The notes under the pieces are model-generated. The model did no database searches. It had not been told where the DNA came from and was given only the letters and a program-made list of their open reading frames with translations. A stretch of DNA of 64,000 nucleotides from Octopus sinensis (lineage: Eukaryota), in the NCBI RefSeq assembly GCF_006345805.1, contig NC_043021.1:7378001-7442000 (forward strand), written 5' to 3'. Below, in pieces: positions 8,434 to 51,360 of the stretch. A program made the translations under genes and the position numbers. Numbering within the stretch: position 1 is the stretch's first letter; each line of letters begins with the position of its first letter.

Positions 8434-8643
8434 GATATTTGTCCTCATCTTGTTTGTTGTTAACACAACGTTTCAGCCTTCATCTCCAGCCTTCTTCAGG
8501 TGTCTCAGGGAAATTTCAAACATGGGTTCTCATTCCTAAGGTATGGCATATGGCGTAGTGGTTATGAGCGCGGGCTACTAACCCCAAGATTCCGAGTTCG
8601 ATTCCAAGCAGTGACCTGAATAATAATAATAATAATAATAATG

Positions 8644-8697
<54 letters not shown>

Positions 8698-8880
8698 TCG
8701 AAAAATACCTTAGGAATGAGAACCCAGGTTCGAAATTTCTCCCAGACACCTGAAGAGGGCTGGAGGGTATATCAGCCGAAACGTTGTGTTAACAACAAAC
8801 AAGGTGAGGACAAGTATCCGTCGAATGTAAATAATGTAAATAATGTACATAATTCCTCATCTCTTAAATATAGAACTGTA
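8433..8880 (+). mobile_element. tRNA-headed element with Penelope-like terminal repeat and inverted partial copy
   Basis: 8433-8544 is the reverse complement of 8705-8820; between them a tRNA-like head (A box 8551-8561, B box 8596-8605) and (TAA)n. Confidence 0.75.
8746..8789 (+). ncRNA. minimal type I hammerhead ribozyme
   Basis: ACAC-CTGAAGA-g-GGCTG gagggtatat CAGCC-GAAA-CG-TT-GTGT; palindromic AACGTT stem III. Confidence 0.75.
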
Positions 8881-18226: not shown

Positions 18227-18313
18227 TCTCGGTACGATCGTTTCGTACGAGGCATCTTTAATAAGCTACAAAAAATGCAGTGAATACAGATGGCTCGTAC
18301 TCGTCAGCCGAAA
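18227..18313 (-). ncRNA. type I hammerhead ribozyme (inverted copy)
   Basis: Reverse complement of the 18813-18900 motif; core intact. Confidence 0.85.
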
Positions 18314-18812
18314 AAATATCAGAGAATTCCCAAACATCAAAAGGGGTAGATACAAAAGAGGTTGTAAGATTAACTGCATTGAAGAAAGTTCGATTCATGG
18401 AGATCCGATGAAAGGTTTTAAACCTATAGAATTTATGCATGTCTACATATAGCTCATTACAAGAATCGCAGATAAGTTCGAACTTATCTGCGATTCTTGT
18501 AAATTTCAATAACAATCTGTTCCTCTACACGATATGACAGTCACTATGTTTTTACTCAGACTTTCCTCTACATGATGTGGCAGTCACTTTGCCTCTTACT
18601 CGGATTTTCAGAAATTTTGCATGACTGTATCTGAAAATTTCTTCATACAACTTGATCAAATATTCAATATGACCTATATGTAGACATGCATGAATTCTAT
18701 AGGTTTAAAACCTTTCATCGGATCTCCATGAATCGAACTTTCTTCAATGCAGTTAATCTTACAACCTCTTTTGTATCTACCCCTTTTGATGTTTGGGAAT
18801 TCTCTGATATTT

Positions 18813-18900
18813 TTTCGGCTGACGAGTACGAGCCATCTGTATTCACTGCATTTTTTGTAGCTTATTAAAGATGTCCTCGTACGAAACGATCGTACCGAGA
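18813..18900 (+). ncRNA. type I hammerhead ribozyme with extended stem II
   Basis: TTTCGG-CTGACGA-GTACGAG..CATCT...AGATG..CTCGTAC-GAAA-CGATCG-TA-CCGAGA; GUA cleavage triplet. Confidence 0.85.
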
Positions 18901-18945
18901 TTTTAATCCATTCTTGTTGCTTTTTTCCTATATATATATATATAT

Positions 18946-19808
18946 ATTATATAATTAGGGCTTAGTAAAATAAATTACTTTGCCACATACTGAACTTAGT
19001 AGAAATAGCAGCCAAAAAAAATTTTCTTAGCATTTCTACTACTTAAAGAAAATTTCTCTCAGATAATGTTTACTCCAGACAGCTGGAGTTCTACTAAGTT
19101 CAGTATGTGGCAAAGTAATTTATTTTACTAAGCCCTAATTATATAATGTAATATTTTGAATTCGCCTTAAATGGTCCTTTTACATACTGAACACTTGGTG
19201 AAATTGATTAATTAATTAATTTTACCCTCAATTGTTGTTATTATAATTCATTTCTCTCGGTCATACTACCTCGGTTCTCGCGGTTAAAATATAATGTTTG
19301 CTAGATAGATCACGTGGGTGGAATGGGGAGTGCAGAATTTTACGCCTGCGCATTTTGAATTTGTTGACACTGTTTAGTTGGAGTGGTTCATCTGAAGCGA
19401 CAAGTTCGCTGATAGGTAAAGTTCCTTCTTTTTTTAGTGTTTCCAAATCCAAATTAAGAAATTTTGAGCTGACGAAAGAAATGCTGATTTTATTTGGCTA
19501 ATCTTGAAACGTTGACGTACTCAAATGATCTATGTACTTGTGATATTTTTCTGTATTTACCCCCAAACCTTCGTGAGCTGTCTGGAGTAAACATTATCTG
19601 AGAGAAATTTTCTTTAAGTAGTAGAAATGCTAAGAAAATTTTTTTGGGCTGCTATTTCTACTAAGTTCAGTATGTGGCAAAGTAATTTATTTTACTAAGC
19701 CCTAATTATATAATGTAATATTTTGAATTCGCCTTAAATGGTCCTTTTACATACTGAACACTTGGTGAAATTGATTAATTAATTAATTTTACCCTCAATT
19801 GTTGTTAT
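18946..19808 (+). mobile_element. retrozyme-like / non-autonomous Penelope element (567-bp period plus inverted 5' fragment)
   Basis: 19089-19240 is directly repeated at 19656-19808; 18946-19084 is the reverse complement of ~19577-19714; (TA)n flanks. Confidence 0.85.
19463..19525 (+). ncRNA. type I hammerhead ribozyme, canonical core
   Basis: TTTGAG-CTGACGA-AAGA...TCTT-GAAA-CGTTGACG-TA-CTCAAA. Confidence 0.85.
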
Positions 19809-19829
19809 ATATATATATATAATATATAT

Positions 19830-20220
19830 TTAAGGTATGTAGAAAAAATACAACATGGACAAGAACGTATAACTCTTAGAAGACGACACAATAAACATGG
19901 ACAGGACATTCGACCCCTCAGTCTTCGTCAAGAACGGATCATCGTAGTAATTTCGGCTGATTAATCTTGAGATTACTAGATCACGGCCAGCCCTCCAAGA
20001 AAAACTAAGCAACGAGCATTAGAAAAACTAAGCTGGAAGCGTAGATTTCCTGGAAGAAGGATCGAATGCATACGAACACCAGGACAGCAAAAGGGACAGA
20101 TATAAAAAACAAAAAACAATAATGGAATACAGAAACATGAATACAGAAGCATTAACGTTGAAAACAACAAGTGTCTTACGACTGATACAAGCAAACAAAT
20201 TTTTTCTCTGGCGCATTTAT
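19830..20220 (-). mobile_element. family E repeat carrying a permuted hammerhead (core 19918-19977)
   Basis: Homologous to 36790-37260 and 28415-28590; (TA)n flanks. Confidence 0.8.
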
Positions 20221-20370: not shown

Positions 20371-21086
20371 GCCTATATGTATGTATGTATGTATGTATGT
20401 AACTGTATCGAAAAATATTTATTTTTTAAAAAATATTTTGTTTTTACTTCTAACAATTTCGATGGCAGTAAAAGGAGAAAACATTATCATGCAAACAACC
20501 AAGTGCGCACTTGTATATTATGCACGTATATACACAGACCGACAAATTTAATATACATCGTATTAGCCTACCCGTGTCGTCAAAAATGCATACAGTTCAA
20601 TTAATGATGGAAAACGGTGCATTAAAACAATTGGAGAAAGTACCGATAAATGTCAGTATATATATATATATATATATATATAATACACACACATATTTTA
20701 TATTATATGAATAATATTTTCTGCCAAGACAATTCTCTGAAAGTATATATATTTACTGACATTTATCGGTACTTTCTCCAATTGTTTTAATGCACCGTTT
20801 TCCATCATTAATTGAACTGTATGCATTTTTGACGACACGGGTAGGCTAATACGATGTATATTAAATTTGTCGGTCTGTGTATATACGTGCATAATATACA
20901 AGTGCGCACTTGGTTGTTTGCATGATAATGTTTTCTCCTTTTTACTGTCGGTTATTGAATTGCCATCCAAATTGTTAGAAGTAAAAAAAAAAAGAAGTTT
21001 TTTTAAATAAATATTTTTCGAAATTTCTTGTGCTCTTGTTGATTTTCAACTCCACTTTTACAGTTACATACATATATATAGGCATA

Positions 21087-28415: not shown

Positions 28416-28590
28416 ATAGAAATCTAATGCTCGTAGCTTAGTTTTTCCCTGGGGTCATAAGCTTAGTTTTTCCTTGGGGTCATAAGTTTCTTCTATTTGC
28501 CAGATTGGAGCAATGTCAAGATTAATCAGCCGAAATTGCGAGGATGATCCGGTTCTTGACTGAAGATTAGAGGCTTCGAATGACCCTCAA
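28415..28590 (+). mobile_element. family E fragment with permuted hammerhead (core 28509-28570, cleavage site mutated)
   Basis: AGCAA-TG-TCAAGA-TTAA-TCAG-CC-GAAA-TTGC...TCTTGA-CTGAAGA. Confidence 0.75.
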
Positions 28591-36721: not shown

Positions 36722-36789
<68 letters not shown>

Positions 36790-36790
<1 letters not shown>

Positions 36791-37260
36791 TAAACAGTAA
36801 AAATAATTACAGACATGGACAAGAACATGAAACACCCCACAGAGACACACAAGAACCACAGGACGGGACATTCGAAGCCCTCAGTCATCAGTCAAGAACC
36901 AGATCATCTTAGCAATTTCGCTGATTAATCTTGAGATTGCTCCGATATGGCACCCGCCAAGGAAATCTACCAAGCGCATTAGATCCCCTGGAAGAAAGCT
37001 TCGAATGTATACAACACGAACGAAGTACACGACAAAAATACAGAATACTTGACACCAATAAGAATACAAAAACGTAAAACAATAACGGTAAAAATAAAAA
37101 ACAAACGAAACCAGGACGTAAGGACAAGGTCTTTCGACAGGACGAGTTGAGTATGTGGCTGGCTTGTGAAGTTGTGCCTAATGGCCGCAGTGAGACGAAC
37201 AAATACTGTTGCTTCGGCGCTGCTGGAACGAAAAGAGCGCTCAACACGGCTAGCGGTCAC
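36790..37260 (-). mobile_element. family E repeat, best-preserved copy
   Basis: Homologous to 19830-20220; adjacent to (TA)n. Confidence 0.8.
36881..36941 (-). ncRNA. candidate non-circularly permuted (pseudoknotted) hammerhead ribozyme
   Basis: Minus strand AGCAA-TC-TCAAGA-ttaa-TCAG-c-GAAA-TTGCT-13nt-TCTTGA-CTGATGA-CTGA. Confidence 0.7.
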
Positions 37261-37515
37261 GTGAGAACAAAAGACAGGAGAAAGGGACAGATGAAAAGAG
37301 AGAGAAGGTGACGAGGGAGGAGAAGAAAGAGACAGATCGAGGGGGCTGGAGGTGAGAGGAATAGAGAAACGGAGAAGGGGGGGAAGACTGATGGGGGGGG
37401 AAAGATAGAGAGAGAGAGGAGAGATGGAGAGAGATAGATCGATAGATAGATAGATAGATAGATAGATGATAGATAGATGATATGTATGTATGTATGCATG
37501 TATGTGTGTGTATGT

Positions 37516-38214: not shown

Positions 38215-38250
38215 CTTTCTGTTGAAGAGCATAGGCTCGAAACATAAAAG
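38215..38250 (+). ncRNA. decayed minimal hammerhead motif (family D)
   Basis: CTTT-CTGTTGA-a-GAGC atag GCTC-GAAA-CA-TA-AAAG; downstream GAGTGTCAAA shared with the 9.7 and 11.5 kb copies. Confidence 0.5.
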
Positions 38251-49319: not shown

Positions 49320-51360
49320 GATTGTATAACGGATGGGTCGATGTGTAACACTGGAGGTACAGTGAATTAGGAACGTATGGCTGTGTGACTGTGTGACTGC
49401 ATGACGGAGTGATAGTGTCATATCGGTACGTTGAGACAATGCGTCGTTGAAAAAGTGGGACAATATGACTGTTTATCAGTGCGCTTGTGTGACGGAGTGA
49501 CACTGACAGTGCGACGATGTGACGGCGTGAACGTGTAATAGTGTGACGGTATGACGATGTGACGTTACGATGGTGTAACTGTACAGAAGAGTAAGGATGT
49601 GCCACTGTGACGGTGGCAGGGTATGGACAGTGTGACATTGTAACGGTGGGTCATTGTGACAGTGGGTTGGTGTGACTGATGATGTAACGATATAACTGTG
49701 ACAGTTTGACGATGTAAACCTGTAATGTCGTGACAGTCTAACAGTTTAAATCTCCAACTGTCTGATTCTGTGACGCTGTGACGGTGTAACAGCGTGACAG
49801 TGTGACAGTATGACGGTGTAGAGTGGTAACTGTGTGACGGTGTGAAGCTGCAACTGCCTGGTTCTGTAACGGCGTGACGGGGTAATGTTGTAACAGTGTG
49901 ACAGTGTAAAACTCCAGCAATCTGACGCTATAACGGTGTGACGACGTGACAGTGTGCCAGTGTAATGCTGCAAGAGCCTGACGCGGTAACACTGTAACAT
50001 TGTTACACTGTGACAGTTAAAGCTACAGCAGCCTTACTCTGTAACGGCATGACAGCATATCGGTGTGACTGTGCAACGGAGTAAAACGCCAACAGTCTGA
50101 CGCTGTGAGAGCGTGAAGATGTAACGCAGTAACAGCTTGATGCTGTAACGCTGTGACGGCGTGACGGAGTGACGGTATAACTGTGTGATTGTGCAACAGT
50201 GTGACTGTACGACGGTGTAACTTTATAACAGTTCGACGGGCGGACGGTATGATAGCCCGATGATGTCACAACATGACTGCGTGACAGTGTAACATTGGAA
50301 CGATCTGATGATATGATGATGTTAGTGTGAATATATGATCATGTAAGCTGTAACAGTGTGACGGCAGAGCATTGCAACAGCTTGATGGTATGACTGCGCG
50401 GCGGTATAACTTTCCAACAGTCTGATGGCGGCACGATGTGATAGCGTGATGGTGTCATAGTGTCACAATGTTGCAGTGTAACACTGGAACGGTCTGGCGG
50501 TGTGATGATGTGACAGAGCGAAGATATGATGGTGTAAGCTGCACGAGTGTGACGATGTAACGCTGTAACATCTTGATACTGTAACGCTGTGACGGCGTGA
50601 CGGCATGACGGTGTTACTGTCCAACGGTGTGACCGTGCAACGGTGTGACCGTGCAACGGTGTGGCCGTGCAACGGTGTGACCGTGCAACGGTGTGACCGT
50701 GCAACGGTGTGGCTGTCCAACGGTGTGACCGTGCAACGGTGTGGCCGTACAACGGTGTGACCGTGCAACGGTGTTACTGTACAACGGTGTGACCGTGCAA
50801 CGGTGTGACTGTCCAACGGTGTGACCGTGCAACGGCGTGGCTGTGCAACGATGTGACCGTGCAACGGTGTGGCCGTACAACGGTGTGACCGTGCAACGGT
50901 GTTACTGTACAACGGTGTGACCGTGCAACGGTGTGACCGTGCAACGGTGTGACCGTGCAACGGTGTGACTGTCCAACGGTGTGACCGTGCAACGGCGTGG
51001 CTGTGCAACGGTGTGACCGTGCAACGGTGTGACCGTGCGATGGTGTGACCGTGCAACGGTGTGGCTGTGCAACGGTGTGATCGTGCAACGGTGTGGCCGT
51101 GCAACGGTGTGATCGTGCAACGGTGTGGCCGCGCAACGGTGTGGCCGCGCAACGGTGTGACCGTGCAACGGTGTGACCGTGCAACGGTGTGACCGTGCGA
51201 CGGTGTAACTGTACAACAGTCTTGATGGCGGGCAGGACGGTGTAGTAGCGTGATGGCGTCACGGTGTCACAATGTGAGAGTGTAACGCTGAAACGGTCTG
51301 AGATGTGATGGTGTGACGATAGAGTGCGGGAGTTATGCCGGTGTAACGGTGTGATCACTT
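49320..51360. repeat. minisatellite: 16-bp core (GTGTGACCGTGCAACG)n at ~50610-51215 within a degenerate 8-bp-period array
   Basis: Directly visible. Confidence 0.93.

What the first reader, a model, noticed from the sequence alone, without database searches (positions are those of the whole stretch)
36868..37008. Repeat family carrying a rearranged (non-circularly permuted, pseudoknotted) hammerhead ribozyme
Seen: on the minus strand all three hammerhead segments are present in scrambled order: [stem III' AGCAA-UC^-stem I UCAAGA]-uuaa-[stem II' UCAG-c-GAAA-stem III UUGCU]-13 nt-[stem I' UCUUGA-CUGAUGA-stem II CUGA]. An 11-bp outer helix (36868-36878 / 36998-37008) encloses it. Established: types I, II and III all keep the cyclic order NUH > CUGANGA > GAAA; here it is NUH > GAAA > CUGANGA, so standard descriptors would miss it. 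Stems I and II lie side by side in the folded ribozyme, so a 4-nt linker between them is plausible. From memory, natural non-circular hammerhead permutations have been reported (Weinberg lab), so the topology may not be new; whether this mobile family is described I cannot check. Inference: a TA-associated Penelope/retrozyme-type element processed by this RNA. Caveat: the usual G10.1-C11.1 pair is absent, with a C/CC bulge before GAAA.
Basis: partly seen in the sequence, partly recalled or inferred. Interest (0 to 1): 0.92.

Follow-up and report, generated by a model that had tools for sequence, protein, structure and literature searches.

The report
Four-strand rearranged hammerhead in Naiad retrotransposons
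This repeat, present in thousands of copies in what is inferred to be an octopus genome, encodes a likely self-cutting RNA whose parts are wired in an order not found in my literature searches; the same predicted fold ends many Naiad jumping genes, which were reported to lack such an RNA.

Summary
Across 67 copies from five subfamilies, the strand before GAAA pairs with a strand lying upstream of the cut site: G10.1-C11.1 in 63 of 67, with compensatory changes. The backbone is therefore open between A9 and G10.1, and the outer helix closes that gap. This is a four-strand, circularly re-opened form of the SGC/CSG/GCS permutations of Eckert 2023, whose model keeps A9-G10.1 contiguous.

The host is a ~775-nt non-coding, tandem, 5'-truncated, (TA)n-targeting Penelope-like retrozyme (4,795 exact 22-mer hits, control 0). 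The same fold follows Naiad reverse-transcriptase genes in this genome, in 10 of 80 metagenome loci (0 in shuffles) and, by eye, in 8 of 53 published Naiad ends.

TA-joined 5' ends of genomic copies pile up from the predicted cut site onward (~45-50 per base versus ~3 upstream), indirect evidence of cleavage in vivo.

Cleavage was not assayed. The window's own copy lacks three stem II bases. The enzyme that mobilises the young subfamilies was not identified.

The parts
36789..37440 (-). 5'-truncated copy of the ~775-nt non-coding retrozyme unit, subfamily A; fixed 3' end at 36789 running into (TA)n; 5' limit approximate (merges into TC/TCTA repeats)
36994..37008 (-). P0 5' arm (closing helix inserted between A9 and G10.1)
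36957..36991 (-). P0b hairpin between P0 and the stem II 5' strand (2 bases missing in this copy)
   Evidence: (helix 4, 86.7% paired)
36951..36955 (-). Remnant of the upstream stem II 5' strand carrying G10.1 (GGCUGG in family copies; 2 bases missing here)
36944..36950 (-). P4 5' strand (stem I-stem II linking helix)
   Evidence: helix 6, 3 pairs counted, 88.4% paired, A-U to G-C change
36935..36941 (-). Stem III strand plus U16.1-C17; predicted cleavage 3' of 36935
   Evidence: truncation pile-up
36929..36934 (-). Stem I, strand 3' of the cut
   Evidence: 97.3% paired
36920..36924 (-). Stem II 3' strand ending in C11.1 (one C missing in this copy)
36911..36919 (-). GAAA (G12-A15.1) and stem III strand
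   Evidence: 94.0% paired, 4 of 5 pairs with double changes
36899..36905 (-). P4 3' strand
36885..36897 (-). Stem I partner strand and CUGAUGA (C3-A9)
36868..36882 (-). P0 3' arm, two bases after A9
36746..36788 (.). (TA)n microsatellite target at the element's 3' end
   Evidence: family pattern
19834..20218 (-). 5'-truncated subfamily B copy; compensatory stem III and P0 changes; one base lost from CUGANGA
28419..28586 (+). Degenerate subfamily C fragment (H17 reads G)

Best explanation
The feature is a repeat copy of a likely self-cleaving hammerhead ribozyme whose core is predicted to be built from four strands in reversed order, open between A9 and G10.1, at the 3' end of a non-coding, (TA)n-targeting Penelope-like retrozyme whose ribozyme was likely inherited from Naiad retrotransposons. 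Order 5' to 3': P0 - hairpin - stem II(10.x) - P4 - stem III/UH^/stem I - short linker - stem II(11.x)/GAAA/stem III - P4 - stem I/CUGANGA - P0. This is the SGC/CSG/GCS circle re-opened in a new helix (P0) placed between A9 and G10.1. Shown: sequence, copy number, covariation, element anatomy, presence of the fold behind Naiad RT genes, pile-up of 5' ends from the predicted cut. Inferred: tandem transcripts are cut to unit length; because the 5' product stays held by four helices (P0, II, P4, III) the unit can re-form the core and ligate to a circle; a Penelope-like RT-endonuclease nicks (TA)n and starts reverse transcription inside the RNA about 146 nt downstream of the cut. Copying a cut RNA runs off its end and gives the short copies that start at +1 to +14; copying an uncut multimer or a circle gives the 1-4-unit partial tandems.
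For: Covariation: 92.6% of 2,378 cells paired, 194 double-change cells against 62 in shuffles, slid controls 23-46% paired; per-subfamily stem II pairs CG>GC, UA>CG, GC>AU. N7 takes all four bases; U16.1 and C17 each in 65 of 67, G10.1 in 63 of 67, none of these required by the selection. Naiad link: RT remnants lie 1.3-1.8 kb upstream, same strand, of the same fold in L185, L186, L190, L256; 332 motif hits, control 0. Of 80 metagenome loci found by Naiad RT profile, 10 have the split S>G>C fold and 3 have CSG, all on the sense strand behind the ORF, none in canonical order at the score cut-off, 0 in 3x80 shuffled loci; each has different helix sequences; 6 of the 10 show an N-terminal GIY-YIG motif in the same ORF. 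By eye, 8 of 53 published Naiad 3' ends (ctenophore, hydrozoan, coral x3, box jelly, octopus x2) read as the split fold and 6 nematode ones as CSG. Truncation footprint: 27 of the first 38 loci start at +1..+4 in a -26..+4 window and 41 of 54 at +6..+14 in a +6..+35 window (hand tally), about 51 and 43 per base against 3.2 and 2.4 upstream and 5.8 downstream; 40 of 40 fetched such loci have no upstream element sequence within ~1.6 kb. Anatomy: fixed 3' end into (TA)n, variable 5' ends, tandems, mixed A/B arrays.
Against: No cleavage assay exists. The window copy itself fails the full descriptor. CUGANGA and CGAAA are invariant in alignment A1 by construction (filter). Pair counts come from related copies, so cells are not independent events; 'pairs with a double change' did not beat the shuffle (267 of 500). 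All Naiad RT hits in G000 are decayed Naiad_Ovul-type copies whose 3' ends have no BLAST match to subfamilies A-E, whereas the young intact autonomous elements found have a C-terminal endonuclease and a canonical-order hammerhead. Only 13 of the 59 metagenome loci with 300 or more bases after the stop carry a detected hammerhead. L315 may be an ordinary contiguous SGC. The pile-up region is A+T rich, which favours microhomology joins to (TA)n, and the three pattern anchors differ in stringency. In a Poseidon PLE, hammerhead cleavage was dispensable for insertion in vitro (PMC11167929).
Confidence: 0.82

Rival explanations
1. One reading: a standard type-SGC hammerhead with stem II made by CUGA after A9 and a CC bulge before GAAA; the upstream pairing is secondary.
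For: The 4-bp helix can form in all 12 A, all 12 B and most C copies; a similar alternative pairing exists in family F. It could act after cleavage or as an off-state.
Against: Fails in D and E, has no G10.1-C11.1 pair, is much weaker, overlaps P0, and is absent in 8 of the 10 metagenome loci (contiguous pairing 0; 1 in L335, 3 in L315).
Confidence: 0.07
2. Same ribozyme, but the young A/B/C retrozymes are mobilised in trans by the intact C-terminal-endonuclease (Neptune/Poseidon-type) elements of this genome, not by a Naiad protein. This concerns the enzyme only and is compatible with the best explanation.
For: Those elements have 960-1000-aa open frames, also end at (TA)n, and sit beside family copies; no intact Naiad among 93 scored candidates. 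A and B copies are 96-98% alike.
Against: Their 3' ends carry a canonical-order hammerhead and show no match to the ribozyme-bearing parts of A-E; only the best candidates are scored, so a young divergent Naiad could be missed.
Confidence: 0.45
3. The structure is a conserved but non-cleaving (or very slow) RNA element, for example a binding or pausing site for the RT, and the 5'-end pile-up reflects RT stalling plus TA microhomology.
For: Cleavage is untested; an open backbone at A9/G10.1 has no experimental precedent that I found; most copies longer than 150 nt read through the site; the peak is broad (+1 to +14).
Against: All catalytic positions and helix registers are kept across unrelated helix sequences. 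A stall would be expected at the 3' edge of a helix (P0, or stem II at +17), yet few ends fall at +15..+35, and A+T-rich stretches on both sides show low rates. The sharp upstream edge coincides with the predicted cut.
Confidence: 0.1
4. Chance arrangement of short motifs amplified by a repeat.
For: Stems I and III alone arise in 4 of 60 shuffled windows.
Against: Five subfamilies, further unrelated families in G000 (1,716 hits against 472 control), and distant Naiads keep the fold with compensatory changes; shuffles give 0.
Confidence: 0.01

Closest known systems
Type-SGC, -CSG and -GCS non-circularly permuted hammerheads (Eckert et al. 2023, PMC10085705)
   Same: Reversed cyclic block order; short linker from stem I to stem II; extra helix joining the other ends of stems I and II (P4); all core nucleotides.
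   Different: Their block C (CUGANGA plus both adjacent stem strands) is assumed uninterruptible and the CSG descriptor I saw requires CUGAUGAG; here the stem II strand with G10.1 comes first, from upstream, and a helix P0 follows A9. Their SGC RNAs came only from metatranscriptomes and CSG from metagenomes, none from known genomes except one bacterial GCS; here thousands of copies sit in an animal genome.
Naiad Penelope-like elements (Craig et al. 2021, PMC8557442)
   Same: (TA)n targets, 5' truncation, partial tandems, presence in octopuses; the paper flagged 'HHR_core' and 'HHR_half_core' 3' ends including Naiad_Ovul.
   Different: The paper reports no canonical hammerhead in Naiads; the half cores resolve here into split-SGC and CSG folds. 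The window element encodes no protein and has no detectable sequence match to Naiad_Ovul.
Metazoan non-LTR retrozymes (Cervera and de la Pena 2020, PMC7229834; Li et al. bioRxiv 10.64898/2026.07.22.740005)
   Same: Non-coding head-to-tail repeats with one hammerhead per unit, proposed non-autonomous PLE derivatives, processed to monomers and circles.
   Different: Described retrozymes carry type I hammerheads and 150-450-bp units; here a reversed four-strand ribozyme and 775-885-nt units.
Hammerheads with an extra base at the 5' end of stem II (De la Pena and Flores 2001; PLE minimal hammerheads, PMC4209133)
   Same: [quoted passage not shown]
   Different: One or two inserted bases, not a full helix with open ends.

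Membership tests
Hammerhead ribozyme | Core C3 U4 G5 A6 N7 G8 A9, G12 A13 A14 A15.1, U16.1, H17 | tested here: met
   Window copy has all; U16.1 and C17 in 65 of 67, N7 free; CUGANGA/GAAA were selection criteria.
Hammerhead ribozyme | Stems I, II, III abutting the core, with A15.1-U16.1 and G10.1-C11.1 | tested here: met
   Family level: 97.3, 93.2 and 94.0% paired, G10.1-C11.1 in 63 of 67. Stem II is damaged in the window copy.
Hammerhead ribozyme | Site-specific self-cleavage 3' of H17 | not testable with these tools
   Indirect only: 5'-end pile-up from +1.
Types I, II, III (circular permutations) | Cyclic order CUGANGA > GAAA > UH | tested here: not met
   Order is UH > GAAA > CUGANGA.
Type SGC (Eckert 2023) | Block order S, G, C | tested here: met
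Type SGC (Eckert 2023) | Stem II strand directly after CUGANGA (block C intact) | tested here: not met
   First pair of a contiguous no-bulge stem II forms in 1 of 67 copies; rival helix 74.6%.
Type SGC (Eckert 2023) | Helix joining the other ends of stems I and II | tested here: met
   P4: (6-11 bp in the 10 metagenome loci).
Non-LTR retrozyme / non-autonomous PLE | Non-coding head-to-tail repeats, one ribozyme per unit, fixed 3' end, 5' truncation | tested here: met
Non-LTR retrozyme / non-autonomous PLE | Type I hammerhead | tested here: not met
   Reversed four-strand form.
Non-LTR retrozyme / non-autonomous PLE | Expressed as linear and circular monomers | tested here: inconclusive
   Only assembled contigs, none on record as RNA.
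Naiad (autonomous) | N-terminal GIY-YIG plus RT ORF | tested here: not met
   No such ORF in the window element or its units; met for 6 of 10 metagenome carriers of the same fold.
Naiad-derived non-autonomous element | Sequence homology to a Naiad 3' end | tested here: inconclusive
   Shared fold, 13-nt G-to-C spacer and TA target with Naiad_Ovul-type ends, but no BLAST match; no autonomous partner found.

The most novel reading that the evidence does not exclude
Naiad retrotransposons and their non-coding derivatives carry an active hammerhead class outside the six-permutation scheme, built from four strands with the backbone opened inside the catalytic junction (A9|G10.1). It is spread across ctenophores, cnidarians and molluscs, is the sister form of CSG hammerheads in nematode Naiads, and its in vivo cleavage is recorded in hundreds of genomic 5' ends.
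Probability: 0.72. Interest if true: 0.93.

Novelty: new variant of a known kind. Interest (0 to 1): 0.87.

Why it matters
It would overturn the published statement that Naiad elements lack hammerheads and explain the 'half cores' their discoverers could not fit. It gives non-circularly permuted hammerheads, so far known from environmental contigs of unknown origin, a genomic home and a job in animals. It breaks the assumption that CUGANGA and stem II must be contiguous, so current descriptors and Rfam models miss it (0 Rfam hits in 39 Naiad-type loci). The open question of whether Penelope-like elements use ribozyme-cut RNA becomes directly testable, because the 5'-end pile-up is a genome-recorded footprint at base resolution.

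Tried and rejected
Canonical type I reading of CUGAUGA with the downstream GAAU-GUC: rejected, A15.1 and the stem I partner are missing. Coding role of the unit: longest stop-free frames are low-complexity. Rfam: no hammerhead listed for the window and no family at gathering score in 39 distinct metagenome loci, 13 of them with the fold. Energy folding does not recover the pseudoknotted fold. Neptune-type neighbours in L057, L085, L136 are separate TA insertions; those in L057 and L085 end in their own canonical-order motif, the one in L136 is cut short. Search for an autonomous partner of A-E: none among 30 loci from a Naiad protein search or 12 long-ORF loci; a profile search of G000 was not available. 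Expression: no RNA holder listed; 20 contig runs from 4 organisms and 9 studies hold the stretch, and laying four of them showed subfamily variants but no ends; no evidence either way. Whether the window copy's deletions are assembly errors could not be told. RT tree is a quick tree only: carriers of the split fold fall in several groups and the three CSG loci group together; no order of events is claimed. Literature: 9 searches found no description of this topology or of permuted hammerheads in Naiads; subscription papers are not covered, and Eckert's supplementary alignments were only keyword-searched, so split-form members there are not excluded. Contigs encoding the public Naiad proteins were not seen.

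Full report
Observation. The minus strand of 37008-36868 holds the stem III strand with UC (C17 = 36935), stem I, GAAA with stem III, the stem I partner with CUGAUGA, and an enclosing inverted repeat. The window lies in a 2.72-Gb genome; I infer an octopus because motifs of the published Naiad_Ovul consensus match it. A 22-mer spanning stem I to GAAA has 4,795 exact matches, control 0. On its own the window copy is weak evidence: stems I and III in this order arise 4 times in 60 shuffled windows.

The element. The ribozyme sits 146 nt from the 3' end of a non-coding unit of about 775 nt (subfamily A; about 830 in B, 820-885 in D and E). In 27 subfamily A loci the 3' boundary is at unit position 772-775 in 23; two arrays end in a B unit and two are cut by the locus edge; 5' boundaries vary, and 1-4 units lie head to tail. 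Most copies of all five subfamilies run into (TA)n. This is the pattern of Penelope-like elements and non-LTR retrozymes.

The fold. I aligned 67 copies (12 A, 12 B, 13 C, 16 D, 14 E): 65 of the 100 distinct copies kept by a filter requiring CGAAA, CUGANGA and two family motifs, plus L200 and L209 added by hand; 21 further A copies, truncated copies and 4 unclassified ones were left out. The six bases before GAAA pair with a strand about 20 nt upstream of the cut site: GGCUG/CAGCC in A-C, GGCCG/CGGCC in E, GGGCA/UGCCC in D. With it the structure has 92.6% of cells paired and 194 double-change cells against 62 in shuffles; slid controls give 23-46%. The count of pairs with any double change did not beat the shuffle (267 of 500), and related copies are not independent.

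Relation to known permutations. Eckert et al. [quoted passage not shown] The fold here is the same reversed circle opened at a fourth place, within block C. Their statement that only 1-2 bases are ever inserted next to CUGANGA, and the CUGAUGAG requirement in the descriptor I saw, would exclude it. That a single extra base at this junction is tolerated is recalled from De la Pena and Flores 2001 (only its title seen); passages of Perreault 2011 list other core insertions but no helix here.

Naiads. Craig et al. (PMC8557442; passages, supplement metadata, part 24 and the last ~330 bases of 53 of 54 consensi) state that Naiads target (TA)n, lack canonical hammerheads, and flag unexplained half cores. 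By eye, 8 of the 53 ends (five independent lineages) read as the split fold with P0, hairpin, upstream stem II and P4, and 6 nematode ends as CSG, one with an extra base after A9; many others show neither. To test this by computation I fetched the family from G000: RT remnants lie upstream, on the same strand, of the split fold. An RT profile gave 80 metagenome loci. A descriptor allowing all six orders plus the split form found 10 split and 3 CSG, all sense and behind the ORF, none canonical at the cut-off, and none in 3x80 shuffled loci. Each of the ten has a 5-6-bp upstream stem II starting G-C, and P4 of 6-11 bp, with unrelated sequences; L315 may be contiguous SGC. Six have an N-terminal GIY-YIG motif in the RT frame. 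Only 13 of 59 loci with enough 3' sequence carry a detected hammerhead. Further families in G000 use the same design.

Footprint of cleavage. If cut RNA is reverse-transcribed, copies should begin at the cut. Patterns for a TA run joined to the element gave 285 reverse-strand loci for starts at -26..+4, 508 for +6..+35 and 73 for about -54..-24. Hand tallies of the listed loci put 27 of 38 at +1..+4 (10 at exactly +1) and 41 of 54 at +6..+14, that is about 51 and 43 per base against 3.2, 2.4 and 5.8. For 40 of these loci, chosen from the peak, a script confirmed the start positions and found no upstream part of the element within about 1.6 kb. The spread to +14 fits trimming to TA microhomology. 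Caveats: A+T-rich peak, different anchors, listing limited to the first places on C1-C2. Frangieh et al. (PMC11167929, part 1 of 4 and passages) showed internal initiation of reverse transcription, which fits the fixed 3' end inside the unit, but found cleavage dispensable in vitro.

Mobiliser. All Naiad RT hits in G000 are decayed, while A and B are young. Intact C-terminal-endonuclease elements that also end at (TA)n exist and carry a canonical-order hammerhead. Which protein moves A-C is open.

Other papers: bioRxiv 10.64898/2026.07.22.740005 (part 1 of 5 and passages) and PMC7229834 (passages) treat type I retrozymes only; PMC13725137 and PMC10162972 (passages) mention variants without describing this one. 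Nine searches found no report of the topology.

Verdict. A well-supported new hammerhead topology at family level, tied to Naiad elements, with indirect in vivo evidence of cleavage; activity untested and the window copy itself probably damaged or mis-assembled.

Noticed in passing
window 38222-38243 (+); L343-L352: 3' end of a young C-terminal-endonuclease Penelope-like family (960-1000-aa open frames, ends at (TA)n) with a canonical-order minimal hammerhead whose C3 position reads U, and C in L352.
   Followed up: partly
window 8486-8499 (-), 8750-8763 (+), 19469-19484 (+): Further canonical-order hammerhead-like motifs; 8499/8750 form an inverted pair, and 19469 lies among long 99% inverted repeats (18253-18873, 18943-19717, 20470-20942), as in inverted PLE insertions.
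   Followed up: no
L132:2590-2640, L165, L163, L156, L206, L221: A second ~800-nt TA-associated non-coding family (F) with the split fold, unrelated in sequence to A-E, also able to form a contiguous stem II with a one-base bulge.
   Followed up: partly
L143, L145, L147, L151, L166, L169, L178; L157/L159; L128/L170: Other repeated families with GAAA 21-27 nt before CUGANGA, old and decayed; folds not worked out.
   Followed up: no
PMC8557442 File S5: By eye, Naiad-1_Movir and mussel/clam Naiad ends look twister-like, and oyster/hemichordate Naiad ends share another conserved motif (HDV-like by recall); Naiads may swap ribozyme classes. Untested.
   Followed up: no
PMC8557442 File S5, Naiad_Ptep: S>G>C order with 7-bp stem I, 6-bp stem III and P4, but a hairpin in place of a normal stem II.
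   Followed up: no
L318, L322, L330: Type-CSG hammerheads behind Naiad-like RT genes; they form one group in the quick tree. CSG was described from two sequences only.
   Followed up: partly
L019, L053: Arrays mixing A and B units, suggesting template switching during reverse transcription.
   Followed up: no
window 49400-51300: Minisatellite with 8/16-nt period, G+C-rich relative to the window.
   Followed up: no
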